DNA of 64,000 bases from Desulfuromonas sp. (GCA_002869615.1 PKUH01000106.1:6158-70157), one strand, 5' to 3'. Positions 35,903 to 47,163 are shown, counted from the stretch's first letter. The notes: generated by a model from the letters alone, not told the origin. Program-made: numbers and translations.

Positions 35903-36071
35903 AATCCTAGATAAGACTCCTTTGAAAATGAACACCAAATATAAACAGATATAAGAGAGATTGTAAAGATGATAGGCAAGCCGGAACAAGCTTTTTGAAA
36001 AGAGCGGTTTGTCAATTTAAAAGAGAGTCTTTTGATGCAAGCTTCCGGGCGCGTCAACAGCTGCATTGAAC

Positions 36072-36098
36072 AAAGAAAAAGCCCCGGGATTCCGGGGC
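36072..36098 (-). terminator. Rho-independent terminator of the FmdB-like gene
   Basis: The minus strand reads GCCCCGG-AATC-CCGGGGC followed by TTTTTCTTT. Confidence 0.75.
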
Positions 36099-36131
36099 TC
36101 GAAACGTACCTAGAAAATGGTAAACATCAAC

Positions 36132-36377
36132 CTACTCGTTTGCCGCCTTGGGACAACCGGCGCAGGCCGGGCTCTTCTCGGAAGAGTCGCAGGACGGCTT
36201 TGGGCCATAACCCTGATCATACCAGCCATCGCCCTTGAGGGTAAAAGCTGTCTGGGAAATCAATTTCTGCACACTGCCGCCACACTCACGACATTCGGTG
36301 AGCGGTGCATCGGAAAATTTCTGGCGGGCTTCAAAAACCAGATCACAAGCGCTGCATTTGTATTCGTACATCGGCAT
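36132..36377 (-). CDS. FmdB-family (CxxC_CxxC_SSSS) zinc-ribbon protein
   Basis: MPMYEYKCSACDLVFE....LTECRECGG is the family hallmark. The start is probably the ATG at 36377, with GGAGG upstream. Confidence 0.85.
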   Translation of the reverse strand: MPMYEYKCSACDLVFEARQKFSDAPLTECRECGGSVQKLISQTAFTLKGDGWYDQGYGPKPSCDSSEKSPACAGCPKAANE

Positions 36378-36617
36378 GGTATTCAATGACCTCCATAAAA
36401 GTTCGGCGATAATCTAATAACTTGGCTCTGTTTTGTCAAGCCAATGAAGTAAAAAACAGGGCTAACGACGACATACCGCTTGCACAACAGCTGAAAAAAC
36501 ATTAATTTGAGGTAATTCTGATGCTTGATCTGTCGAATAAATTATGCTATTTTCCGTTGAATATCAACAAATTATACAATTGTCAGTTGCAATTACAACT
36601 TCCGGCAGGAGGGAAAG

Positions 36618-37247
36618 ATGATCCGTAAAGTTTGTACCATACTTATTATCCTGATCTGCGTCACCGCAACTTCAGCATTCGCATTTGACCAGGACTACAG
36701 AAAGTACCTGACCCTGGGTGGTGGCTTCACTTTGATGCAGGAGACCGATCAGAACCATGACGATTCGGTCACCTTTGTTAACCAGCCACTAACTATCAGC
36801 TCCGACAAGGGATTCAACGGTTTTCTCGCAACCGGCATGTCTTATGATGCCGGCCGGGTTGAGTTCTCACTGCATTACAACCAGGCAGAGTTCGAAGAAT
36901 TCAAAGACTCTCTCGGGGCAACGACCAATCTTGAAGGTAATCTGAAATTCGTCTCATTTCTGATGAGCGTTTTTTGGGAATTCAACAAGGACGGCATCAT
37001 GTCTCCATACTTTGGTGGTGGCATTGGCGCCTGCCATATCAAGATGGATGATTCAACCCTCGGCGAGAACCGGGATGGTGCTGCCGTTATTCAGCTCGGT
37101 ATCGGCCTGAATTTCAATATCAGCGAGAACCTTGAGTTAGATCTCGGCTACAAGGCTATGAGCGTCGTGGAGCCGAACCTCGGACCGATCAACCCGAGCT
37201 ACCTGACAACGCACAACGGTAATCTTGCTTTCCGCTTCCTCTACTAG
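36618..37247 (+). CDS. Small outer-membrane beta-barrel protein (OmpA-like barrel / OmpW-size)
   Basis: Signal peptide ending SAFA, alternating amphipathic strands and a C-terminal aromatic terminus AFRFLY. GGAGGGAAAG RBS. Confidence 0.7.
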   Translation: MIRKVCTILIILICVTATSAFAFDQDYRKYLTLGGGFTLMQETDQNHDDSVTFVNQPLTISSDKGFNGFLATGMSYDAGRVEFSLHYNQAEFEEFKDSLGATTNLEGNLKFVSFLMSVFWEFNKDGIMSPYFGGGIGACHIKMDDSTLGENRDGAAVIQLGIGLNFNISENLELDLGYKAMSVVEPNLGPINPSYLTTHNGNLAFRFLY

Positions 37248-37274
37248 TCGACATAAAACAATATGAATTTTCTG

Positions 37275-37304
37275 ACGGGCAGCCATAACAGCTGCCCGTT
37301 TTTT
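37275..37304 (+). terminator. Rho-independent terminator
   Basis: ACGGGCAGC-CATAACA-GCTGCCCGT followed by TTTTT. Confidence 0.85.
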
Positions 37305-37387
37305 ATGAGAGAGCTCTCACGACCGTTGACAACCCGTTATCGAACATGCTACCTCTTGAATTCAGCTTTTTGAATATTAATTATACT

Positions 37388-37483
37388 GGGAGTAGTTCGT
37401 AGTCTGGTGACGCGCTCGGTCTTCAAAACCGATGGGGGGCGTATCCCGTCCCCGGTGGGTTCGATTCCCATCTGCTCCCGCCA
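37388..37483 (+). tRNA. selC: tRNA-Sec (anticodon UCA), bacterial 8/5 fold
   Basis: Hand fold of 96 nt: 8-bp acceptor GGGAGTAG/CTGCTCCC, 6-bp D stem with 4-nt loop (CGT(A)GTC-TGGT-GACGCG), anticodon loop CTTCAAA, 7-bp long variable arm GGGGGCG-TATCC-CGTCCCC, 5-bp T stem GTGGG-TTCGATT-CCCAT, discriminator G, encoded CCA. Confidence 0.93.
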
Positions 37484-37503
37484 ATAGAAAAGGAAGCATT
37501 GTT

Positions 37504-37773
37504 ATGCTGCCACCGAAACAGCACGAAAAGTACTGCAACTTCTACGATGCGGTCCGTGACGAATCGAACCTCGACAGGAAAACGACCATCCTGGTCGGGC
37601 TCGCTTCGGCCATGGCGATCGGCTGCGAACCATGAATCGAGCACTACCTTGGCGTTGCCAGGGACGACAACATCTCGAAAGAAGAAATCGGCGCCACCCA
37701 GGGGATTGTCATTGCGGTCGCGGCCGGCAAGGTCAATGCCCTGATGAAAAAAGCCGAAACGAATTCAGAATAG
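37504..37773 (+). CDS. AhpD-like / carboxymuconolactone-decarboxylase-family selenoprotein. The in-frame UGA at 37633-37635 is read as Sec.
   Basis: Translation is MLPPKQHEKY...LASAMAIGCEP-U-IEHYLGVARDDNISKEEIGATQGIVIAVAAGKVNALMKKAETNSE*. The UGA occupies the second Cys position of the family CxxC..H redox motif. CMD-like similarity continues after the UGA. A hairpin lies 11 nt downstream. The ORF track stops at the UGA. Confidence 0.85.
37647..37663 (+). other. Candidate bacterial SECIS hairpin for the AhpD-like gene
   Basis: CCUUGGC-GUU-GCCAGGG (7 bp including one G:U). The stem starts 11 nt after the UGA, and the loop begins with G about 18 nt from the UGA. Confidence 0.55.
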
Positions 37774-37803
37774 CTGAACTTCCATTCTACTCCGGAGGTG
37801 AAG

Positions 37804-39213
37804 ATGTCTGACCGCCGGAACCTGCTCAAAACCCTCCCTGCCATAGACAAAATACTGCACGCGCCCGAGATGATCACGCTGGCCGAAACCTGCCCGCACG
37901 TGCTGCTGGTTGAAGCAGCTCAGCGGACGGTCGATGACTTGCGAAGACAGATTCTCGATGAAAAAATGCCGGCACCGGAGTGCACGCCTGAAATCGTTGC
38001 CAAAAAAGCGCTCGCAATTGCGGAAAAGCTGAATACTCCCTCACTGCAGAAAGTGATCAACGTTACCGGCACCCTGCTCCATACCAACCTCGGGCGAGCC
38101 CCGCTCTGCCAGGCAGCCCTTGCGGCGATGCAGGAAGTCTCGGCCGGGTACTCGAATCTCGAATACGATCTCGATGCCGGTCAACGGGGCAAGCGCTTCC
38201 GCCATGTCGAAGACCTGATCTGCCGCCTGACCGGGGCCGAGGCGGCGACGGTGGTCAACAACAACGCCGGTGCCGTCCTGCTGGCGCTTGCCGCCCTTGC
38301 CGGAGAGAAAGAAGCGCTCGTCTCCCGCGGCGAGTTGATCGAAATCGGCGGTTCGTTCCGCATCCCCGACATCATGGCGGCCGGAAACGTCAGACTGGTC
38401 GAAGTCGGAACCACCAACAAGACCCATCTTGAGGACTACCGCAGGGCGATCACAGCCGATACGGCGCTGATCCTGAAAGTCCATACCAGCAACTACCGCA
38501 TTGTCGGATTTACCGAAGCGGTTCCGGGCAGCGCCCTGGCCGACCTCGGCCGGGAAAAGGGCGTCACTGTACTCGAAGACCTCGGCAGCGGACTGCTGAT
38601 CGATCTGTCAGATTACGGCCTGCCGCCGGAACCGACAGTCGGTGAAGCGTTGAAGACCGGGATAGATGTACTGACATTCAGCGGCGACAAGCTCCTCGGC
38701 GGACCGCAGGCCGGTATTATCGTTGGCCGCAAAGAGTGTATTGAGCGGATACGCAAACACCCGATGGCCCGGGCCCTGCGTATCGACAAGATGACCCTGG
38801 CGGCGATCGAAGCGACCTTGCGTCTTTACCTCGATCCGGAGCAGGCACTGCGCGAAATCCCGACCCTGCGGATGCTGGCGCAGCATGATGACCAGTTAAA
38901 GGTAAAAAGCGAGCAGCTGATCGAGAAACTAATGAAAGAACTGAACGGGGCATGCAGCATGGAATTAATCTCGACACTGGCTACGGTTGGCGGCGGCGCC
39001 CTGCCGCTGGCCGAGCTTCCCGGCTTCGGTATTGCCCTCAAACCGAAAACGATCTCGCCGAACCGGCTGGCCGAAAACCTCCGGCAGTCGATACCACCGG
39101 TTATCGGCCGGATCCAGAACGAATATTTCATTATCGACCCACGGACTCTAGCCGTAGATGAAGAGCCCCTGCTCTGCCAATCTCTGGCGAATGCCTTAAG
39201 GATAACCGACTGA
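37804..39213 (+). CDS. selA: L-seryl-tRNA(Sec) selenium transferase
   Basis: PLP-lysine context FSGDKLLGGPQAG and family homology throughout. The ATG at 37804 follows GGAGG. The ORF-track start at 37798 is a GTG inside the spacer. Confidence 0.94.
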   Translation: MSDRRNLLKTLPAIDKILHAPEMITLAETCPHVLLVEAAQRTVDDLRRQILDEKMPAPECTPEIVAKKALAIAEKLNTPSLQKVINVTGTLLHTNLGRAPLCQAALAAMQEVSAGYSNLEYDLDAGQRGKRFRHVEDLICRLTGAEAATVVNNNAGAVLLALAALAGEKEALVSRGELIEIGGSFRIPDIMAAGNVRLVEVGTTNKTHLEDYRRAITADTALILKVHTSNYRIVGFTEAVPGSALADLGREKGVTVLEDLGSGLLIDLSDYGLPPEPTVGEALKTGIDVLTFSGDKLLGGPQAGIIVGRKECIERIRKHPMARALRIDKMTLAAIEATLRLYLDPEQALREIPTLRMLAQHDDQLKVKSEQLIEKLMKELNGACSMELISTLATVGGGALPLAELPGFGIALKPKTISPNRLAENLRQSIPPVIGRIQNEYFIIDPRTLAVDEEPLLCQSLANALRITD

Positions 39214-39215
39214 CC

Positions 39216-41129
39216 ATGGCGCCGCCCGAACGACACCATATTATCGGCACGGCCGGTCATGTCGACCACGGCAAAACCGAATTGATCCGGGCCCTGACCG
39301 GGACCGACACCGATCGCCTGCAGGAAGAAAAGGCGCGCGGCATCTCCATCGATCTCGGCTTTGCCCCGTTCAGACTTCCGGACGGCTCGGTGGCCGGTGT
39401 CGTCGATGTTCCGGGTCACGAACGTTTTATTCACAATATGCTCGCCGGCGTCGGCGGAATCGATCTGGTGCTGCTGGTTATCGATGTTCAGGAAGGGATC
39501 ATGCCGCAAACCCGTGAGCACCTGCAGATCCTCGAACTGTTGCAAATCCAACAGGGAATCATTGTCCTGACCAAGTGCGATCTCGCCGAAGATGACTGGA
39601 TCGATATTGTCGAAGAAGAGGTCCGTGAAGAGCTACAGGAAACATTCCTCGAACATGCTCCCTTCTGCCGGGTTTCGTCAATCAGCGGCAGCGGCATTGC
39701 GGAGCTGAAGGAGCAGATCGCCAAAATCCTCAGGCAGGTCGAATCGAAGGATTGCGATGGCCCCCTGCGCCTGCCGATTGATCGCCATTTCAGTGTCGCC
39801 GGTTTCGGCACCGTTGTCACCGGCACCCTGCTCTCGGGCCGCATCAACACCGGCGTTACCACCGAGCTGCTGCCGCCCGGAATCGAAGCCCGGATCCGTG
39901 AAATTCAGGTGCATGGCAAGAAGGTCGAGGCCGCAGCCGCCGGGCAGAGGGTTGCTCTAAACCTCGCCGGCGTTGACCGCGCCAAGTTGAAAAGGGGAGC
40001 GGTGATCGGTACGCCCGGAATCTTTGAACAGACCGAAATGATCGACGTCCGGCTCAACCTTCTGCCGGGCGCTCCGCGGACTCTCAAGTTCCGTGATCCG
40101 GTCCACTTTTACCTCGGTACCGCCCGGGTCGTTGGAATCGTAGCCCTCCTCGACCGCGATGAACTCAAACCTGGTGAAACCGCCATCGTTCAGATCCATC
40201 TCGATCGGCCCCTGGTCGCCCATCGCCAGGATCGATTTATCGTCCGTTCCTATTCGCCGATGACCACCATTGGCGGCGGCATGATCATCGATCCGGGACC
40301 GGCCAAGCACAAACGTTTTCGTGATGAGGTCATGCAGACCCTCTCCGAGCTCGAATCGGGTGAGACCTCGTTCCTGTTGCAGAAAATCAGTGAACTGACC
40401 GGCCCGAAAGTCAAGGAGCTTGAGCAGGCCTCCGGCCTCGGTCGGGAAAGGATCGAGGACCACCTCGAGAGACTGGCAGAAGATGGCACGGTCATCCGGC
40501 TTGGCGATCAGTGGTTGACCGGAGAGACGGTTCGCGCCTGGGAGCGACTGCTGCTTGAACGATGCACCCGGTTCCACGCGGACAACCCGCTCCTCAACGG
40601 CATTCCGCTGGCAACCCTGAAAGGGATTTTGCCGCACCCCCTGGCTGCCAAGGGGTTTGATGCACTGCTCAACCGGCTCGAAGAGCGTGGTGAGCTGACG
40701 CGGCGTCTCGACAACGCGGCTCTGCCCGGTTTCCGGCCGGAACCATCACCTGAGCAAAAGAAAAACATCGACGCCATCCTGAAAAACTACGAGGACGCCG
40801 GGGCATTAGCCAAAAACCGGACGGAAATGCTGGCCCGGCTCAATCTGAGTGAAGCCGAGGCAAACGATTGCCTGGGCTACCTGTTTGCCGAAGGGCTTTT
40901 GATCCGCTTGAATGACGAAAACTTTTTTCATCATAAAACTTTTGATTTCGCCATCTCGCTGCTCCGTGATAAATTTGCCGATAGAGAGTTCAGCCTTGCC
41001 GAGTTTCGCGATGAACTCGGCAGTGCCCGCAAGGCGGTCCAGGCTTTACTCGAATACTTTGACGCGCAGAAATACACGATGCGCAAAGGTGATGTCAGGG
41101 TCGCATGGAAACTGCCCGAAAAAACTTAG
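39216..41129 (+). CDS. selB: Selenocysteine-specific elongation factor
   Basis: G-domain motifs GHVDHGKT, DVPGHERF and TKCD, plus a long C-terminal winged-helix extension. 637 aa. Confidence 0.94.
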   Translation: MAPPERHHIIGTAGHVDHGKTELIRALTGTDTDRLQEEKARGISIDLGFAPFRLPDGSVAGVVDVPGHERFIHNMLAGVGGIDLVLLVIDVQEGIMPQTREHLQILELLQIQQGIIVLTKCDLAEDDWIDIVEEEVREELQETFLEHAPFCRVSSISGSGIAELKEQIAKILRQVESKDCDGPLRLPIDRHFSVAGFGTVVTGTLLSGRINTGVTTELLPPGIEARIREIQVHGKKVEAAAAGQRVALNLAGVDRAKLKRGAVIGTPGIFEQTEMIDVRLNLLPGAPRTLKFRDPVHFYLGTARVVGIVALLDRDELKPGETAIVQIHLDRPLVAHRQDRFIVRSYSPMTTIGGGMIIDPGPAKHKRFRDEVMQTLSELESGETSFLLQKISELTGPKVKELEQASGLGRERIEDHLERLAEDGTVIRLGDQWLTGETVRAWERLLLERCTRFHADNPLLNGIPLATLKGILPHPLAAKGFDALLNRLEERGELTRRLDNAALPGFRPEPSPEQKKNIDAILKNYEDAGALAKNRTEMLARLNLSEAEANDCLGYLFAEGLLIRLNDENFFHHKTFDFAISLLRDKFADREFSLAEFRDELGSARKAVQALLEYFDAQKYTMRKGDVRVAWKLPEKT

Positions 41130-41146
41130 CCAAACGAGGATGATAA

Positions 41147-42184
41147 ATGTCTGGACAGGTCAAGTTGACCAGCCTTTCACGCACCAGTGGTTGAGCCGCC
41201 AAACTGGCCCCCGAGCCGCTGGCGCAGGTGCTGCGTCAGTTACCGAAAACTGAAGATCCCAATCTGTTGACGGCCGGGATTCTCTTTGCCGACGCCGGAG
41301 TTTACCGGATAGCGGACGATTGCGCCCTTGTCCAGTCGGTCGATTTCTTTACGCCGATTGTCGATGATCCGGCGACCTTCGGCCGCATCGCCGCCGCCAA
41401 TGCCCTGTCCGATATCTATGCGATGGGCGGCAAACCAATTACGGCCCTCAACATGGTCGGCTTCCCGAAATGCCTCGATCACGGCATTCTCGTCGAGATC
41501 CTCAAGGGGGGGGCTGAAAAAGCCGCCGAAGGGGGAACCATTATCGTCGGCGGCCATACCGTAGAAGACGATGAACCAAAATACGGCCTGGCAGTGACCG
41601 GACTGATTCACCCCGACAGCATGATCACGACCGCTGGAGCCCAGCCGGGCGACGTTCTGATTCTGACCAAACCGCTCGGTACCGGCATCCTGGCAACAGC
41701 ACTCAAGGGCGAGGTTCTCACCGAGGTGGATATTGCTGAAGCGATTGCCGGGATGGAATCTCTCAATCGCGATGCATCCGAAGCGATGCTGGCCGTCGGA
41801 GTCAATGCCTGTACCGACATTACCGGCTTCGGTTTTCTCGGTCACGCCATCGAAATGGCTGAAGCAAGCTCGGTCTGCATTGAAATTTCAGCCGAAAAAC
41901 TTCCGGTCTATCCACGCGTCCGCGAGATGGCTGCGATGGGGATGATCCCGGCCGGCAACCGGCGGAACCGCAACTATTACTGGCCGAAAGTTCTCGACGG
42001 CCACGTACCGACAACCGACATCATCGACCTTGTCTCCGATCCGCAGACCTCGGGAGGGCTGCTGATATCGGTTGCCGCCGACAAAAAAGAACAATTGATC
42101 CAGCTTCTTGCCAACAAAGGGGTCGATGCCCGCATCGTCGGCGTTATATCATGCGGACGGCCGGGAACGGTCAGAATCGAGTAA
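41147..42184 (+). CDS. selD: Selenophosphate synthetase, Sec-containing form. The in-frame UGA at 41192-41194 is codon 16.
   Basis: The N-terminus extends upstream of the ORF-track start: MSGQVKLTSLSRTSG-U-AAKLAPEPLAQVLRQLPK.... The UGA sits at the position of the catalytic Cys/Sec in the SelD glycine-rich N-terminal loop. The rest is a PurM-like fold (DDPATFGRIAAANALSDIYAMGG). Confidence 0.88.
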
Positions 42185-42199
42185 AGACTTCACCTTTCA

Positions 42200-43885
42200 T
42201 TATTGAGAAGAGCTGCTTTTGCCAAGCCTGAGGTAGGCGAATTGTTGAGCCGCGTACAAATCCCTGTTCATTCCTGATGTCTGCTCCATAAATGCAATAT
42301 CCTTCAAAACATCCCGATAAATCACTGACCTGTTTTTAATTTCAGGTAATTTAGAATTGGGGAACGCGTTTCTTCTTAGAAAAACCATGGAAACTTCGTC
42401 ATGGTAAACAAAACTCCACTCAGGAGTTTGCCATAAATAATCTGTTAATTTGTACAACTCACCGGTAAAAGGGTTTAGTCTCGGAACCAGGATAATATCA
42501 ATCTGATTTGAATCCAGAATCCTTTTCGTTTTATCAGGCAGCCACAACACACGCGTATAGGCGTCGAAAAGACGAAGGTTCAAACTTCTGCCATCGATAA
42601 ATGTGACAAGCTGTCCCGGTGCATGCCATGCCAAGTAGCCCCCCCAATTAAAATGGTTAAAAATATTTCCTGACAACTCATGGGATTGCAAGAATGCGAC
42701 AGCTTCTTCCGGGAACCGTCTTTCATTCACAGGGTTTTCCGACAACACACGGTAACTTTCCGAAACCTGGCGTACAGCCTGCCACGCCAGGAGGACTATC
42801 AGTGACAGGGTCACTCCGGCAGTAAATACTTTCAAGGTATTATTCTCACGACGCCTGATTTCATACTTATCAAAGATGAAAACGACAAAACCACTGATGA
42901 AAAACGGAGCGTAACGAAAAGCCGTCGTACTGACGAGAAACAAAAAAGAGACAATGGCGAGTTTGGTTAATGATATTTTCAGTCTGTTTAAGAACAGAAT
43001 TGCAATAAAAAGGAAAAGAGCGAAAAAATATGGCCAGTAGACCAGAATATCTCTTTTCGCAAGAACAAAGGGCGACAGGTATTCCGATGATTTCTGTTGA
43101 ATCAGCCCCCCTTGGGACTGGATAAACTGCATGTAAATATTGAGTCCGTTCGGATTAAGGAGAGTTGAAAAAATTGCAAGAACGATAATCCCCCATAAAA
43201 TCATGAGTCTTTTTTTAGGGTTGCCGCTGTGAAGTATACTACCACTTTCAAATACAATGAAAAGAGCGAGAACAGCAACCCCAAGGAGAAAACCACCGTG
43301 CAGGTTGGCCCATAGCAGCATAAACGGTGGAAGGAGTATTGCCGCTCGCAAATTGTATTGCTTCTTTTCATCCATCTCCGCAGAAAAACCGACTGCTGCC
43401 AGGAGTATGAAAAATATTGGGACTAATAGCAAAGTCAAATGATTCGGCCTCAGACCGGGAACATAGACCAGCCCCCATCCCAAAAGCAGTGAAGCTAGGA
43501 TCGCGACTTCGAAGCTGATATTACGGATGCGGAAATATAAAAAGGTAACAACAATGGGTAAAGAGATGAGGACAGCGCGAAAGATAACCATGCCCTGTTC
43601 AGCACTAAAGATGAAAACCTTATAAAGTATAATCTGGGAAAGCCAATAGCCGTTCAGAATTATCTCACGATCTGGAGAAATAGCTCGACCGGCCAGACCG
43701 AAAGGATCATGATTCAACAGGGATCCGGTTTGACAGATATGCCGTCCTGTCGCGAGATGCCACCAGATGTCGATGTCCGAGATCGGTTCAATAGCTAAGA
43801 TGAAAAAACTTGCAGTAACGACTATCAGGCCGACCACCTGGAGAGGGTGATTGATCTGGCTATATTTTCCAATAAGCTTTTTCAC
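42200..43885 (-). CDS. Polytopic membrane protein, possibly a GT-C-fold glycosyltransferase-like protein, with a C-terminal soluble domain. Function unknown.
   Basis: 561 aa with about 12 predicted TM helices. An acidic motif (ISDIDIWWHL) follows TM1, as in GT-C enzymes. The C-terminal domain of about 190 aa contains FNHFNWGGYLAW...FIDGR. The gene is visibly more A/T-rich than its neighbours. Confidence 0.45.
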   Translation of the reverse strand: MKKLIGKYSQINHPLQVVGLIVVTASFFILAIEPISDIDIWWHLATGRHICQTGSLLNHDPFGLAGRAISPDREIILNGYWLSQIILYKVFIFSAEQGMVIFRAVLISLPIVVTFLYFRIRNISFEVAILASLLLGWGLVYVPGLRPNHLTLLLVPIFFILLAAVGFSAEMDEKKQYNLRAAILLPPFMLLWANLHGGFLLGVAVLALFIVFESGSILHSGNPKKRLMILWGIIVLAIFSTLLNPNGLNIYMQFIQSQGGLIQQKSSEYLSPFVLAKRDILVYWPYFFALFLFIAILFLNRLKISLTKLAIVSFLFLVSTTAFRYAPFFISGFVVFIFDKYEIRRRENNTLKVFTAGVTLSLIVLLAWQAVRQVSESYRVLSENPVNERRFPEEAVAFLQSHELSGNIFNHFNWGGYLAWHAPGQLVTFIDGRSLNLRLFDAYTRVLWLPDKTKRILDSNQIDIILVPRLNPFTGELYKLTDYLWQTPEWSFVYHDEVSMVFLRRNAFPNSKLPEIKNRSVIYRDVLKDIAFMEQTSGMNRDLYAAQQFAYLRLGKSSSSQ

Positions 43886-43932
43886 CTGAAAAACCTTGTA
43901 GATCCTATAGTTAGATTATTAGTGGAGAGATT

Positions 43933-44343
43933 TCAGAGATCCCCTGTTAATTTCTGAAGCCTGAACAATTTCGGATTCAGGATTTTGACACATTCAACAA
44001 TATCCTGCAAACCCTGTTCATCAACCCTCTCTTCCTCATCTTTCCCTTGAAACCAGGCATACCCTTTCGGCAATTCAGAGGGTCGGCCGCCGCGCATCAA
44101 CATTACGTCAACCATCTCGTTCACCCGACCCTCTGCTTCCCAGGGATCACGATAATCATATTGCCGAGCGATAATGTTGAGCATCAAACCATTCGGAAAT
44201 TGCGCCCGCACCTCGAACGAATATTCGCGCGGCGCGCTGTAATTATCGGTTCGGCCACTGCGCGACATCGCCCGGGCACCGGCCGCGTCAAGCATTTCCT
44301 TGACCGTCTCCTCGGTCATCGGTTTTTGTTCGGTCATTAACAA
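43933..44343 (-). CDS. Hypothetical protein (136 aa)
   Basis: ORF only. I recognise no motif. Codon usage looks native. Confidence 0.4.
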   Translation of the reverse strand: MLMTEQKPMTEETVKEMLDAAGARAMSRSGRTDNYSAPREYSFEVRAQFPNGLMLNIIARQYDYRDPWEAEGRVNEMVDVMLMRGGRPSELPKGYAWFQGKDEEERVDEQGLQDIVECVKILNPKLFRLQKLTGDL

Positions 44344-44407
44344 ATTCCTTTTCTAAAAATAAATTCGCCAGCAGGCCGCGAAGAAAAACAATCTCAATAG
44401 ACACACC

Positions 44408-44528
44408 TTTTAACGGAGAGACGCGAAGGTGGAGAGGGAATCCACACACACAAAAAATTCAGTATTCGATCTGACGCTTGATAACTCGTTTCCTGTTGCC
44501 TCTACCTCTCTCCGCCTCTCCGTTAAAT
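44408..44528. repeat. Imperfect long inverted repeat with a 12-nt perfect core (TTTAACGGAGAG ... CTCTCCGTTAAA) and purine-rich / pyrimidine-rich arms of about 28 nt
   Basis: Left arm tttaacggagagacgcgaaggtggagaggg (from 44408). Right arm cctctacctctctccgcctctccgttaaa (to 44528). The arms are about 60 nt apart. The repeat lies in the 240-nt gap between the vWA gene stop and the start of the 136-aa ORF. Confidence 0.6.
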
Positions 44529-44583
44529 GCCGTGAGTTTTAATAACTTCTTGGTGCCTTCGTGGCAAACACGCCTGTCATTTA

Positions 44584-45804
44584 TCACGTGTGCAGTCGCA
44601 GCTCCACTCCCCAGTCGGCCGGTTTCTGGCCATCGATGGTCAGAGCCCAGAGGGTCGGGAACTCCATCGTCTCCGGGACAGGACCATAACCATCGGTCAG
44701 ATAGATGACGGCGGCCGGTTGCGGCTGCATGGTTCGGGCATATGCAAAAACCGGGCGCAGATCGGTAAACCCGCCACCGGTCACGACTTCAGCAACCACA
44801 TTACTGCCGGTGAAAGAATCGACCTTCTGAATGCGGCTGTTGGCATAAAGAACCGTGATCAGGCTGTCGCGGCTTCTGGCGATCTGCAGCAGTTCGCGGG
44901 CGAACGCTTTCCGCAATTCGAGAATATCAGTCGACTCACTGGTATCGATACCGACCAGCAGATTCAGGCGCTTTTTCTTGCGAACTCCCGGGGTACTGTG
45001 CGAAAAACGCCGATGTTGGCGTTTCCAGGTTGACTGTATGCCGACCCGTCCGGCGGTCGCGACAAACTGGCGCAGAATTTCTCGCCACGGAATGGCCGGT
45101 GGGACCAGCCAGCCTTCAACCAGTTGTTGGACATCGGCCGGCACCTCGCCGCCACTTTTCCGGTGCGCATCAACGACCATATCGCGAACGGCCTGTTCCG
45201 CCAGGCGCTCCGGTGTCGAGCCGGCATCATCCCAGAGGCTGTGGTCATCAATGGTACGAGGAGCAAAGGACTGCGCCGAAGTGCTTTCCCTTTCCGGGCC
45301 GTCAGCGCTTTCCTTTTCAGGGGTGGCCGTACCATAGCCATCGCCGCGCAGGTTGCCGGTATCGAATTGTGGGGTCAGCAGGCGGGCATACTCTTCGGCG
45401 GCCCGACCGGGTTCGAGGCGAAAACGGTCGGGTTGCAGAGCTTCGGCCGGCAGGTTGTCGATGGTCGGGTTGATCGCCAGGTCGGTTGCGACATCCCAGG
45501 TCAGCGGATGAAATATTCCACGGCGAAACGGGTGCATGTGCAGGATATGTTTGAGTCCGTGCTCAAGAAGAGCCTGCTGTTCCGAGTTGCTGAATTGAAG
45601 AAAAGGTTCAGGGTTGATCGCCAGCAGGGGAGTGCCATTGCGCACCGTGGCGCCGAGGCAGCCATCGGTCGAAGTCAATTCACGGCGAAAGTTCATCAGG
45701 AAATGCCCGTAAAAAGGCTTTTCCTTCAACAGGCGGATGACCGAATTCTCGAGCGCACGTTGTCCATTCTGCTGCAATGAGGAGAATTCAGCCATAGCGG
45801 TCAC
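44584..45804 (-). CDS. DUF2201-type protein: N-terminal zincin-like (putative metallopeptidase) domain plus C-terminal vWA domain
   Basis: 406 aa. The N-terminal half contains ..ALLEHGLKHILHMHP.. and WDVATDLAINP (DUF2201_N-like). The C-terminal half has the MIDAS motif GIDTSES (DxSxS) and a vWA-like fold. It starts 4 nt after the AAA+ gene. Confidence 0.7.
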   Translation of the reverse strand: MTAMAEFSSLQQNGQRALENSVIRLLKEKPFYGHFLMNFRRELTSTDGCLGATVRNGTPLLAINPEPFLQFSNSEQQALLEHGLKHILHMHPFRRGIFHPLTWDVATDLAINPTIDNLPAEALQPDRFRLEPGRAAEEYARLLTPQFDTGNLRGDGYGTATPEKESADGPERESTSAQSFAPRTIDDHSLWDDAGSTPERLAEQAVRDMVVDAHRKSGGEVPADVQQLVEGWLVPPAIPWREILRQFVATAGRVGIQSTWKRQHRRFSHSTPGVRKKKRLNLLVGIDTSESTDILELRKAFARELLQIARSRDSLITVLYANSRIQKVDSFTGSNVVAEVVTGGGFTDLRPVFAYARTMQPQPAAVIYLTDGYGPVPETMEFPTLWALTIDGQKPADWGVELRLHT

Positions 45805-45807
45805 CGA

Positions 45808-46869
45808 TCAGGAAGCCTCTTCGCTGATCGCACTGATGGCGTCGAGTACCAAGGCATCGTGTTCATCCTTGCAGAGCAAAGCTGCTACCTCCGGGATCTT
45901 GACCAGTGACTTGACCAGTCCGAACCGGGCGTCACGCGGCAGGACCGCGATGTAAGCGACCAGATGTTTCTCACGCACCGGGCTGAGGCTCGGCTCCAGT
46001 TGCAGGGTCGACACCAGGTCGTTCATGGTCACCGCCTGGGCATCATCACGCTGGGCAACAACCCGGGGTTCGACCTCCGGCCAGGTATCGAGGACTTCAT
46101 TGGCGCTAACCGGCCGTTCGCTTTTTTCACGGCACCAGCGCAGGAAGCTGACCGCGGCTTCCTGGCCAACGATGCCGGCATAGACTTCCATTTCGAGTTC
46201 GTCAGCAAACCGGCACGACCTGCGCAAGGTGCTGACCATCTCCCAGGCCCGCTCGCTCGGTTCCATCTGCATATCGAGTGGCGCCCCCTGGCGCGCCAGG
46301 AACTGCGGCTGGCCGGAGAGAAACTGCCGCACCGATTCATCGAAATCCTGTTCCCGGGCATAGTCGGCCCAACAGCGGTAATCGGTTTCAACGTAAAGCA
46401 TCACCATCCGGTCGAGCAGGGCCCGGTCGAGAGTCGCCACCTGGTAGCTTCCATCCGGCGGGTTGATCGAAACGACAACCTTATGCTTCGGGTGCAGGGT
46501 GTGGGTATGTAAAGCTCGACACCTACCCGCCAGCGGCGGCTCGACGAACTGGAAGATCGCCTGCAGGGTATCCTCCTGCTGGGCCCGGTTGAGCTCATCG
46601 CAGTGAATGATGGACGCTTCGTTCTCATCATCCGGCCACCACGACGGCCGCGACCAGTACATGACCTTGCCCTCGCGATACGGGATGCCGACCAGGTCGC
46701 CAACCTCCATCTGGCCGAGGCGGAGAGAAACATATTTCCGACCAATCTCGTTACAGACCTGGAGGATTCCGGCCGATTTGCCGACTCCGCGGTGACCTAC
46801 AACACATGGTGTGAGCTCGGTGTGAAGAATGATTTCGTGAAGAACCGATTTCATTTGTGCAATATTCAT
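45808..46869 (-). CDS. MoxR/AAA_5-type AAA+ ATPase
   Basis: Walker A GHRGVGKS and Walker B SIIHCDELNRA. The start is uncertain between the ATG at 46869 (MNIAQMK) and the TTG at 46908. Confidence 0.8.
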   Translation of the reverse strand: MNIAQMKSVLHEIILHTELTPCVVGHRGVGKSAGILQVCNEIGRKYVSLRLGQMEVGDLVGIPYREGKVMYWSRPSWWPDDENEASIIHCDELNRAQQEDTLQAIFQFVEPPLAGRCRALHTHTLHPKHKVVVSINPPDGSYQVATLDRALLDRMVMLYVETDYRCWADYAREQDFDESVRQFLSGQPQFLARQGAPLDMQMEPSERAWEMVSTLRRSCRFADELEMEVYAGIVGQEAAVSFLRWCREKSERPVSANEVLDTWPEVEPRVVAQRDDAQAVTMNDLVSTLQLEPSLSPVREKHLVAYIAVLPRDARFGLVKSLVKIPEVAALLCKDEHDALVLDAISAISEEAS

Positions 46870-47163
46870 TTTGAGGGTCCGTTGATTGTTGACAAACAGG
46901 GTTATCAATTACCATATCAAGACGAATGACGCAACCAACCAGAGAAAGCATCAATAATGATTATTATCTCTGGCAGCCTTGTCAATTTACGTTTTTTGGT
47001 ACCGTGATTTAACACATATTAATTTTGAGTTCATGCCAAGGCTCGTATCATAATCCATTAGCAAAAAGATTAAACATGACTCCACGCCATAAAGTTCTAT
47101 GAAATCAATTGCTTACAAAAAAAACACGGCCAAATCCCTAAACTGACAATAAAGTTCTGATTT

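What the first reader, a model, noticed from the sequence alone, without database searches (positions are those of the whole stretch)
37388..42184. Compact selenocysteine island: tRNA-Sec, a client selenoprotein, selA, selB and a Sec-containing selD in one co-oriented string
Five co-oriented elements sit in under 5 kb with short spacers. The tRNA-Sec is followed after 21 nt by a UGA-containing ORF. selA follows after a 30-nt gap, selB after 2 nt and selD after 17 nt. The whole Sec-decoding trait therefore travels with one small redox selenoprotein, and a terminator (37275-37304) lies just upstream. That is the layout expected of a self-contained, possibly transferable module. The ORF track misses the tRNA and truncates both selenoprotein genes, so automated annotation would probably mis-call this locus.
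Basis: partly seen in the sequence, partly recalled or inferred. Interest (0 to 1): 0.7.

Follow-up and report, generated by a model that had tools for sequence, protein, structure and literature searches.

The report
Conserved selenocysteine operon, not an island
This is a real, complete selenocysteine operon (tRNA-Sec, a small selenoprotein, selA, selB, selD) that sits at a fixed chromosomal site in a group of Desulfuromonadales bacteria rather than on a mobile island; its one new feature is the small selenoprotein, which is always encoded next to selA.

Summary
The parts are tRNA-Sec (37388-37483), an 89-residue CMD/AhpD-fold ORF with an in-frame UGA (C-E-P-U), selA, selB and a Sec-type selD. 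All are co-oriented, with 20, 30, 2 and 17 nt spacers and a terminator just upstream. Both UGAs are followed by SECIS hairpins, and covariation across 69 and 38 unique homologous sequences supports both.

The "transferable island" reading is not supported. Composition and codon usage match the rest of the window. No integrase or att-like repeat is present. Related contigs carry the same operon between the same flanking genes (gcvP-metF-folD-OMP upstream; 136-aa gene, DUF2201 gene and 366-aa gene downstream). The foreign-looking element is the adjacent low-GC membrane gene (42200-43885).

Complete sel clusters that include a selenoprotein gene are already known, also on plasmids. What appears undescribed is the small selenoprotein. 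All 37 metagenomic relatives with at least 55% identity and enough downstream sequence have it directly upstream of selA. This subfamily carries an extra conserved Cys11. Its 44-56% paralogues lack Cys11, and many lie beside arsenic-resistance genes. In a sister group yedF precedes the tRNA.

The protein may therefore handle selenium for the pathway rather than being a mere client. That is an inference.

The parts
37274..37308 (+). Intrinsic-terminator-like hairpin plus T-run. It ends the upstream OMP beta-barrel gene (36618-37247) and sets the 5' limit of the sel unit.
   Evidence: 10-bp stem with 7 G-C pairs, followed by TTTTAT. Homologous hairpins precede the tRNA in L001 and L089.
37326..37355 (+). 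Candidate promoter: TTGACA, an 18-nt spacer, then TACCTC preceded by TG. This is inferred, not shown.
   Evidence: Read from the sequence. The same TTGACA...TGCTACCTC arrangement is conserved in L089, and L001 has TTGACA-16-GATAAT at the same place. It falls below the threshold of the consensus scan.
37388..37483 (+). selC, the tRNA-Sec gene (anticodon UCA, encoded CCA end).
   Evidence: ARAGORN. Rfam RF01852, 75.8 bits, E = 9e-14.
37504..37773 (+). Small selenoprotein gene (89 residues) with the CMD/AhpD fold. Redox motif Cys41-Glu-Pro-Sec44 plus Cys11. Called cmdU here for convenience only.
   Evidence: Translation. Pfam PF02627, 41.2 bits against a gathering score of 23. Solved relatives 3BEY, 1VKE, 1P8C and 7Y4R have CxxC aligned to CxxU. 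45 sel-linked homologues.
37633..37635 (+). In-frame UGA read as selenocysteine (residue 44 of the small protein).
   Evidence: 84 of the 87 homologous loci recovered have TGA here, two have TGC (L164, L165) and one has TTA (L081).
37647..37663 (+). SECIS hairpin of the small gene: CCUUGGC-GUU-GCCAGGG. It starts 15 nt from the U of the UGA and encodes YLGVAR.
   Evidence: Folding. Across 69 unique Sec-type sequences the 7 core pairs are 98.6% paired, against 16-62% when the partner is slid. Compensatory changes C-G to U-A (56 vs 12) and U-A to C-G (65 vs 4). Loop GUN in 66 of 69. The two Cys homologues lack the hairpin.
37804..39213 (+). selA, L-seryl-tRNA(Sec) selenium transferase. The ATG is preceded by GGAGGTG.
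   Evidence: TIGR00474, 606.7 bits against a cut-off of 267.9. Pfam SelA and Se-cys_synth_N.
39216..41129 (+). selB, the Sec-specific elongation factor, with C-terminal winged-helix SECIS-binding domains.
   Evidence: TIGR00475, 381.5 bits against a cut-off of 242. Pfam GTP_EFTU, Beta-barrel_SelB, SelB-wing_2 and SelB-wing_3.
41147..42184 (+). selD, selenophosphate synthetase of the Sec type (N-terminal ...TSG-U-AAKL...).
   Evidence: Translation. TIGR00476, 371 bits against a cut-off of 125.
41192..41194 (+). In-frame UGA read as selenocysteine (residue 16 of SelD).
   Evidence: 44 of the 46 selD genes recovered in the fetched sel loci have TGA at this position.
41218..41240 (+). SECIS hairpin of selD: GCUGGCGCAG-GUG-CUGCGUCAGU, 27-49 nt from the U of the UGA.
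   Evidence: Folding. Across 38 unique Sec-type selD sequences the 8 core pairs are 93.4% paired, against 27-51% when slid. Compensatory G-C to U-A (19 vs 12) and G-C to A-U (21 vs 15). Loop GUN in 34 of 38.

Best explanation
The region is a chromosomal, vertically inherited selenocysteine operon of a Desulfuromonadales bacterium, in the order selC (tRNA-Sec), small CMD/AhpD-fold selenoprotein, selA, selB, selD.

How it works, from the established bacterial pathway:
- SelD makes selenophosphate from reduced selenium and ATP.
- SelA converts Ser-tRNA(Sec) to Sec-tRNA(Sec).
- SelB-GTP binds Sec-tRNA(Sec) and the SECIS hairpin just 3' of a UGA, and inserts Sec.

Two of the operon's own genes need this. 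The small protein is recoded at UGA 37633 and SelD at UGA 41192, each followed by a SECIS hairpin. The unit therefore depends on its own product.

The layout suggests one transcript. It would start between the upstream terminator and the tRNA, and the tRNA would be cut out of its 5' end. This step is inferred.

The small protein belongs to a sel-operon-specific subfamily of CxxU CMD proteins with an additional conserved Cys11. It is most likely a thiol/selenol redox protein. I think it more likely an accessory of selenium handling than an unrelated client, but that is also inferred.

The block is not a mobile island.
For: Gene identities.

Recoding: SECIS covariation for both UGAs. The Cys homologues lack the hairpin.

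Single unit: spacers of 20, 30, 2 and 17 nt, a Shine-Dalgarno-like sequence before each ORF, and no internal terminator-like or promoter-like site on the + strand.

Conservation: all 37 metagenomic relatives of the small protein with at least 55% identity and enough downstream sequence have selA next. selB and then Sec-type selD follow wherever the contig continues. The same holds in the MAG loci L001, L002, L003 and L081 and the short metagenome contig L082.

tRNA-Sec lies upstream on the same strand in 18 loci.

Vertical inheritance: L095 shares gcvP, metF, the metF C-terminal gene, folD (85%) and the OMP gene upstream. L102 shares the three genes downstream, beginning 71 nt after selD. GC, GC3 and codon usage are typical of the window. 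The surrounding genes are housekeeping genes.

Accessory role of the small protein:
- Cys11 is conserved in 42 of the 43 full-length sel-linked sequences and in none of the 40 non-sel-linked ones.
- The paralogues lie next to ArsA, ArsR or ArsC genes.
- The best NCBIfam similarities are to the AhpD domains of arsenite-methyltransferase selenoproteins.
- yedF (TIGR03527, 204 bits) directly precedes the tRNA in 14 sister loci.
Against: No transcript data exist, so co-transcription and tRNA processing are inferred from spacing alone.

The candidate promoter is weak by consensus and was not flagged by the scan.

The function of the small protein is untested.
- One relative (L002) has a Prx-like UxxC selenoprotein gene just upstream, which fits a plain peroxide-defence role.
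- One relative (L081) has Leu (TTA) and Ser in place of Sec44 and Cys11, yet keeps the ORF.
- A Desulfuromonadales MAG (L004) has tRNA-Sec, selA and selB without the small gene, so it is not essential for Sec decoding.

The metagenomic loci carry no taxonomy and may include repeated samplings of related populations.
Confidence: 0.85

Rival explanations
1. It is a mobile or recently inserted 'Sec island': a self-contained cassette integrated next to, or carrying, tRNA-Sec and transferable between genomes.
For: All parts of the trait plus two selenoprotein genes lie in 4.8 kb. The genes flanking the block on both sides are low in GC (0.43-0.49). L002, L003 and L004 share no flanking genes with the window within 10 kb. 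Sec clusters do occur on plasmids: 144 plasmid records carry selB homologues, and 21-kb Terrisporobacter plasmids carry selD-selA-selB. The literature argues that transfer of the trait needs such clustering plus a selenoprotein gene (PMC1794560).
Against: The upstream flank (six genes) is colinear in L095, and the downstream flank (three genes) is colinear in L102, with the operon between them. The sel genes have typical GC, GC3 and codon usage; it is the neighbouring 561-aa membrane gene that is atypical, and it is absent at that spot in L102. No integrase or transposase and no direct repeat of the tRNA 3' end were found. No close SelA relative was found in viral contigs.
Confidence: 0.05
2. 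The small selenoprotein is only a client. On this view it is an AhpD-like thiol/peroxide-defence protein, for example the reductant of a peroxiredoxin, and it sits in the operon merely because it needs Sec.
For: It has the CMD/AhpD fold with the CxxU motif at the AhpD CxxC position. L002 has a Prx-like W-U-P-Y-C selenoprotein gene directly upstream. A review notes operons that pair Prx-like and AhpD-like selenoprotein genes (PMC13188914).
Against: Only one sel-linked locus was found to have a Prx-like neighbour; tblastn with the L002 protein found none in the window or in the 80 metagenome loci. The nearest paralogues are linked to ars genes, not prx genes. Linkage to selA is invariant across the subfamily, and the subfamily has its own extra cysteine. 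In the sister group yedF adds a second predicted selenium-handling gene to the operon.
Confidence: 0.35
3. The small ORF acts mainly as a Sec-sensing leader. Whether ribosomes read through or terminate at UGA 37633, or whether SelB occupies its SECIS, would tune expression of the selA-selB-selD genes downstream. This would be analogous to the SECIS-like element that controls E. coli selAB (recalled from the literature, not tested here).
For: It is the first ORF of the unit, only 30 nt upstream of selA, and carries a strongly conserved SECIS.
Against: The whole 89-residue protein is conserved as a CMD fold at 55-82% identity, so the peptide itself is under selection. L081 keeps the ORF with a sense codon at the Sec position. 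In several loci other genes lie between selA and selB, so the operon tolerates rearrangement.
Confidence: 0.1

Closest known systems
Firmicutes-type complete sel cluster, selD-selA-selB(-selC). Example: Terrisporobacter mayombei plasmid pTM1, NZ_CP101638.1.
   Same: All Sec-decoding genes are co-oriented in about 5 kb. SelD is itself Sec-type, with a homologous SECIS. tRNA-Sec is nearby.
   Different: The gene order differs: selD comes first and the tRNA, where present, comes last. No CMD-family selenoprotein gene is embedded. The accessory genes are LysR_Se and a NifS-like enzyme. Some copies are plasmid-borne.
Proteobacterial selA-selB-selC operon with a neighbouring fdhA (Zhang et al. 2006, PMC1794560).
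   Same: The Sec machinery is clustered with one selenoprotein gene. That paper already states that such clustering plus a selenoprotein gene is what lets the trait be transferred or kept.
   Different: There the linked selenoprotein is formate dehydrogenase and selD is usually elsewhere. Romero et al. 2005 (PMC1273633) found selD rarely contiguous with selAB. Here the linked gene is a 10-kDa CMD protein, selD is included, and the locus is vertically inherited.
CMD-domain CxxU selenoproteins (Zhang et al. 2005, PMC1088965), the GSU3128 'distant AhpD homologue' family (NF041047), and the AhpD domain of ArsM/AhpD selenoproteins (NF041537).
   Same: PF02627 fold, a CxxU motif at the AhpD CxxC position, and a SECIS immediately after the UGA.
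   Different: The scores are far below the cut-offs of every curated NCBIfam family (21.6 against 110; 57.4 against 510). The sel-linked subfamily has an extra conserved Cys11 and a fixed position upstream of selA. I found neither feature described in the papers I could read.
YedF/YedE, DUF3343 and LysR_Se: accessory selenium-metabolism genes predicted from their position next to sel genes (Lin et al. 2015, PMC5322559).
   Same: The argument is the same: guilt by genomic association with selA or selD. yedF itself directly precedes the tRNA in 14 sister loci.
   Different: That paper contains neither 'AhpD' nor 'carboxymuconolactone'. The window itself has no yedF.
tRNA-Sec (selC)-associated genomic islands of enterobacteria. 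Recalled from the literature, not examined here.
   Same: A block of genes lies directly 3' of tRNA-Sec.
   Different: No integrase, no att repeat and no atypical composition, and the synteny is conserved. The resemblance is positional only.

Membership tests
Bacterial Sec-decoding system (selC, selA, selB, selD) | tRNA with a UCA anticodon and the tRNA-Sec architecture | tested here: met
   ARAGORN tRNA-SeC. Rfam RF01852, 75.8 bits against a gathering score of 47.
Bacterial Sec-decoding system (selC, selA, selB, selD) | SelA, SelB (with winged-helix SECIS-binding domains) and SelD above the curated equivalog cut-offs | tested here: met
   TIGR00474 607 against 268 bits, TIGR00475 381 against 242, TIGR00476 371 against 125. 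Pfam SelB-wing_2 and SelB-wing_3.
Bacterial Sec-decoding system (selC, selA, selB, selD) | A bacterial SECIS hairpin shortly 3' of each recoded UGA, with G-U in the apical loop | tested here: met
   Hairpins at 37647-37663 and 41218-41240. Covariation in 69 and 38 unique homologues, with a GUN loop. bSECISearch itself was not available, and Rfam gave no SECIS match.
Bacterial Sec-decoding system (selC, selA, selB, selD) | Actual insertion of Sec at the UGA codons | not testable with these tools
   Needs 75Se labelling or mass spectrometry.
CMD / AhpD-like family (Pfam PF02627) | Domain match above the gathering score, with the redox pair at the CxxC position | tested here: met
   41.2 bits against 23. 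C41-x-x-U44 aligns with the CxxC of 3BEY and 1VKE.
GSU3128 family (seleno)protein, NF041047 ('distant AhpD homologue') | Score at or above the curated cut-off of 110 bits | tested here: not met
   21.6 bits.
ArsM/AhpD-domain selenoprotein (NF041537), MduS (NF045649), TIGR04169 | Whole-protein score above the cut-off, and the methyltransferase fusion architecture | tested here: not met
   57.4 against 510, 54.6 against 380 and 31.2 against 120 bits. Only the AhpD domain aligns and the protein is 89 residues long.
tRNA-linked genomic island or mobile element | An integrase or recombinase next to the tRNA, and a direct repeat of the tRNA 3' end at the far border | tested here: not met
   No such repeat in 36000-46000. 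The neighbouring genes are an OMP gene, an FmdB zinc-ribbon gene, folD, metF, a membrane-protein gene and a DUF2201 gene.
tRNA-linked genomic island or mobile element | Atypical composition, and presence or absence varying at a conserved site in relatives | tested here: not met
   The sel genes have GC 0.58-0.59 and GC3 0.65-0.70, within the range of other window genes. Relatives L095 and L102 carry the operon between the same flanking genes.
Single operon (one transcript) | Read-through transcription across all junctions | not testable with these tools
   Only indirect evidence: short spacers and no internal terminator-like or promoter-like sites on the + strand.

The most novel reading that the evidence does not exclude
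The small C11...C41-x-x-U44 CMD protein may be a dedicated selenium-handling component of the Sec pathway. It could be a redox carrier that reduces or binds selenium, for example as an S-Se-Se or S-Se-S adduct, and hands it to SelD, or that recycles SelD's N-terminal Sec. It would have evolved from metalloid-handling paralogues encoded beside ars genes. This would name a new candidate for the unresolved question of how reduced selenium is delivered to selenophosphate synthetase.
Probability: 0.3. Interest if true: 0.7.

Novelty: new variant of a known kind. Interest (0 to 1): 0.4.

Why it matters
The operon itself is textbook biology in a tidy arrangement, and it is useful mainly as an annotation warning. 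Gene callers split both selenoprotein genes, and in one public record an ORF was called through the tRNA gene.

The more useful result is comparative. A distinct subfamily of small CxxU CMD proteins is locked to selA across a whole clade. It has its own extra cysteine, paralogues encoded beside arsenic-resistance genes, and yedF as a further neighbour in the sister group. That yields a concrete, testable candidate for a selenium-trafficking or redox accessory of SelD. The physiological selenium donor of SelD is, to my knowledge, still debated.

Tried and rejected
- Rfam at a permissive threshold found no SECIS family match in 37300-42300, only chance miRNA/snoRNA hits. SECIS support therefore rests on folding and covariation.
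- Folding z-scores of the single sequences are weak (-0.2 and -1.1) and were not used as evidence.
- The word-indexed protein search found only 2 relatives of the small protein.
- Context look-ups for distant half-proteins (P0021, P0036, P0040) returned contigs under 1 kb, which are uninformative. P0005, a Cys form, is not sel-linked.
- A search for an att-like repeat of the tRNA 3' end found none.
- Neither a Prx-like gene nor yedF is present in the window.
- A scan for further UGA-containing ORFs in the window gave only uninterpretable candidates.
- A viral-contig scan with SelA found nothing.
- Two papers by Haft and co-workers on new selenoprotein families (PMC12013261, PMC9879109) are not held. 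I cannot exclude that they mention this subfamily.
- Structure prediction was not run. The tool does not return coordinates, so the distance from Cys11 to the CxxU motif could not have been measured.
Full report
**1.

ARAGORN finds tRNA-SeC (anticodon tca) at 37388-37483 on the + strand. Rfam's tRNA-Sec model scores 75.8 bits against a gathering score of 47.

Twenty nucleotides later (the finding said 21) an ATG at 37504 opens an 89-codon frame. It reads MLPPKQHEKYCNFYDAVRDESNLDRKTTILVGLASAMAIGCEP-UGA-IEHYLGVARDDNISKEEIGATQGIVIAVAAGKVNALMKKAETNSE and stops at TAG 37771-37773.

The genes that follow are:
- selA, 37804-39213, after a 30-nt gap. The ATG follows GGAGGTG.
- selB, 39216-41129, after a 2-nt gap.
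- selD, 41147-42184, after a 17-nt gap. It has TGA at codon 16 (...TSG-U-AAKL...).

All three proteins exceed the curated NCBIfam equivalog cut-offs by wide margins: 607 against 268 bits, 381 against 242 and 371 against 125. SelB also carries the winged-helix SECIS-binding domains.

A terminator-like hairpin with a T-run lies at 37274-37300. It is the only such site on the + strand until 44301. No sigma-70-like site was flagged on the + strand inside the block.

**2. Both UGAs are recoded, judged by comparative RNA evidence**

Folding the single sequences shows a 7-bp hairpin, CCUUGGC-GUU-GCCAGGG, starting 15 nt from the UGA of the small gene. It also shows a 10-bp hairpin, GCUGGCGCAG-GUG-CUGCGUCAGU, 27-49 nt from the selD UGA. 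The z-scores are weak on their own, and Rfam has no matching SECIS family. I therefore used homologues.

For the small gene there are 69 unique Sec-type sequences.
- The 7 core pairs are 98.6% paired. When the 3' partner is slid by 1-2 nt the figure falls to 16-62%.
- Double compensatory changes occur: C-G to U-A (56 vs 12) and U-A to C-G (65 vs 4).
- The loop is GUN in 66 of 69.
- The two Cys-containing homologues have no hairpin.

For selD there are 38 unique Sec-type sequences, spanning Desulfuromonadales and Firmicutes.
- The 8 core pairs are 93.4% paired, against 27-51% when slid.
- Compensatory exchanges occur: G-C to U-A and G-C to A-U.
- The loop is GUN in 34 of 38.

**3. What the small protein is**

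It matches Pfam CMD (PF02627) at 41.2 bits against a gathering score of 23. It aligns with small CMD proteins of solved structure, each deposited with six chains (3BEY, 1VKE, 1P8C, 7Y4R), and their CxxC sits where this protein has C41-E-P-U44.

CMD-domain CxxU proteins are a known selenoprotein family (PMC1088965; PMC13188914). However, this protein reaches no curated NCBIfam cut-off. Its best similarities are to the AhpD domains of ArsM/AhpD (57 against 510 bits) and MduS (55 against 380). TIGR04169 scores 31 against 120, and the GSU3128 family scores only 21.6 against 110.

**4. The arrangement is lineage-typical, not unique**

A scan of GTDB species genomes with SelA puts the nearest relatives in Desulfuromonadales MAGs, at 58-72% identity. 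Their layouts are:
- L001: OMP gene, tRNA-Sec, small gene, selA, selB (contig ends).
- L002: small gene, selA, selB, selD.
- L003: the same, with a GAF/HD-domain gene between selA and selB.
- L004: tRNA-Sec, selA and selB only.

A metagenome scan with an alignment of the small protein returned 80 loci.
- All 41 loci with at least 55% identity have TGA at the Sec codon.
- All 37 of these with enough downstream sequence have selA next.
- selB and then Sec-type selD follow wherever the contig continues.

tRNA-Sec lies upstream on the same strand in 18 loci. The distance is 19-29 nt in eight (as here), 46-146 nt in six, and 0.7-3.5 kb in four. In the last group an OMP gene, a 160-aa gene or a metal/redox gene set intervenes.

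In 14 loci of a sister group yedF ends about 10 nt before the tRNA. It matches TIGR03527 at 204 bits against a cut-off of 110. yedF is a predicted selenium-metabolism gene (PMC5322559).

**5. It is not an inserted island**

- Composition: the sel genes have GC 0.58-0.59 and GC3 0.65-0.70, with ordinary codon-usage distances. All lie within the spread of the other 44 genes of the window.
- Mobility genes: the surrounding genes are core housekeeping genes (SMC, ackA, pta, gcvP, metF, folD) with no integrase or transposase.
- Repeats: no repeat of the tRNA 3' end exists within 10 kb.
- Upstream synteny: metagenome contig L095 carries gcvP (79%), a 137-aa gene (74%), metF (72%), the metF C-terminal gene (68%), folD (85%) and the OMP gene (42%). 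They are in the window's order and lie directly upstream of the same operon.
- Downstream synteny: contig L102 carries homologues of window genes 43933-44343 (72%), 44584-45804 (62%) and 45808-46908 (73%). They are in order and begin 71 nt after selD.

The operon therefore occupies a conserved chromosomal slot. The element that looks foreign is the window's 561-aa membrane gene at 42200-43885. It has GC 0.43, no family match, and is absent at that position in L102.

L002, L003 and L004 do not share the window's flanks. At 58-66% SelA identity this is unsurprising.

**6. Relation to what is known**

- Complete sel clusters are common. In the fetched Firmicutes loci selD(U)-selA-selB, often with tRNA-Sec nearby, is the rule.
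- 144 plasmid records carry selB homologues.
- Plasmids of 21 kb in Terrisporobacter carry selD-selA-selB plus LysR_Se and a NifS-like gene.
- Zhang et al. 2006 already argued that transfer of the trait needs clustered sel genes plus a selenoprotein gene, fdhA or selD (PMC1794560).
- Romero et al. 2005 noted that selD is rarely contiguous with selAB in the genomes then available (PMC1273633).

The concept in the finding is therefore established. The specific order selC, CMD-U gene, selA, selB, selD is a clade-specific variant.

**7. The part that seems new**

The sel-linked proteins form a distinct subfamily.
- Cys11 (motif AYC[N/D]FYD) is present in 42 of the 43 full-length sequences and in none of the 40 non-sel-linked relatives.
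- Those relatives (44-56% identical, also CxxU) often lie in arsenic contexts. An ArsA ATPase gene is directly upstream in 8 loci, ArsR regulator genes occur in 6 and LMW-phosphatase-type ArsC genes in 5.
- The single sel-linked exception, L081, has lost both Cys11 (to Ser) and Sec44 (to Leu, TTA). It retains the SECIS hairpin and the ORF. This hints that the two residues work together.
- Lin et al. 2015, who catalogued genes neighbouring sel genes, mention neither AhpD nor CMD.
- No NCBIfam model covers the subfamily.

From this I infer, without proof, that the protein may be a selenium (metalloid) redox or carrier accessory that feeds or recycles SelD.

The plainer alternative is an AhpD-like partner of a peroxiredoxin. 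L002 supports this, since a Prx-like W-U-P-Y-C selenoprotein gene lies just upstream. The literature also reports Prx-like and AhpD-like selenoprotein gene pairs. I put these two readings at roughly 0.3-0.35 each. A purely regulatory leader-ORF role is less likely (about 0.1), because the whole fold is conserved.

**8. Verdict**

- The identification of the parts is correct.
- The 'self-contained' reading is correct in the functional sense.
- The 'island / transferable' reading is not supported.
- The 'client' reading is an open question.

Overall this is an ordinary Sec operon in an unusually complete, clade-specific arrangement. The sel-locked Cys11 CMD selenoprotein is a modestly interesting and testable by-product.

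Noticed in passing
window 42200-43885 (- strand): A 561-aa multi-pass membrane protein gene with GC 0.43 and GC3 0.46 and no Pfam or NCBIfam match. It is wedged between selD and the conserved downstream genes. In relative L102 the downstream genes start 71 nt after selD, so this gene, not the sel block, looks like the insertion.
   Followed up: partly
L081 1468-1740 (Desulfuromonas sp. MAG, GCA_002868925.1): The sel-linked small protein has TTA (Leu) instead of TGA at the Sec codon and Ser instead of Cys11. The SECIS hairpin and the full ORF are intact. This could be a recent loss of function, a change of function or an assembly error.
   Followed up: partly
L002 7900-8493: A Prx-like (AhpC/TSA) gene with an in-frame TGA (motif W-U-P-Y-C) lies directly upstream of the small selenoprotein gene. 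That makes three selenoprotein genes in one string: Prx-U, CMD-U and SelD-U.
   Followed up: partly
L003 1950-3590 and L095 9841-11526: A GAF plus HD-domain (HD-GYP-like) signalling gene is inserted between selA and selB in two independent relatives.
   Followed up: no
L104 900-3981: Five genes lie between tRNA-Sec and the small selenoprotein gene: an ArsR-type regulator, a permease related to the SO_0444/SaoE efflux families, an MTH895/ArsE-type thioredoxin-like protein, a thioredoxin-fold protein and a DsbD/CcdA-like membrane protein. This is a metal/metalloid redox set inside a sel locus.
   Followed up: partly
L099-L101, L082, L083 (e.g. L082 496-981): A conserved gene of about 160 aa for a secreted or lipoprotein-like protein, with a coiled-coil segment and two W-E-C motifs and no family match. 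It recurs between the OMP gene or the tRNA and the small selenoprotein gene.
   Followed up: no
L147-L161 (e.g. L147 638-901): In the ars-linked paralogue loci a conserved ORF of about 88 aa (MLKFPDGTKIRVTGLDEILADLY...) with no Pfam or NCBIfam match follows the CMD-U gene about 180 nt downstream.
   Followed up: no
window 36132-36386 (- strand): An FmdB-family CxxC-CxxC zinc-ribbon protein (TIGR02605) is encoded two genes upstream of the sel unit (the OMP gene lies between). Reviews list the FmdB family among families that have Sec-containing members; this copy uses Cys.
   Followed up: no
L001 (public ORF call P0002): A public gene call of 95 aa starts upstream of tRNA-Sec, reads through the tRNA gene and ends at the Sec UGA.
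   Followed up: yes
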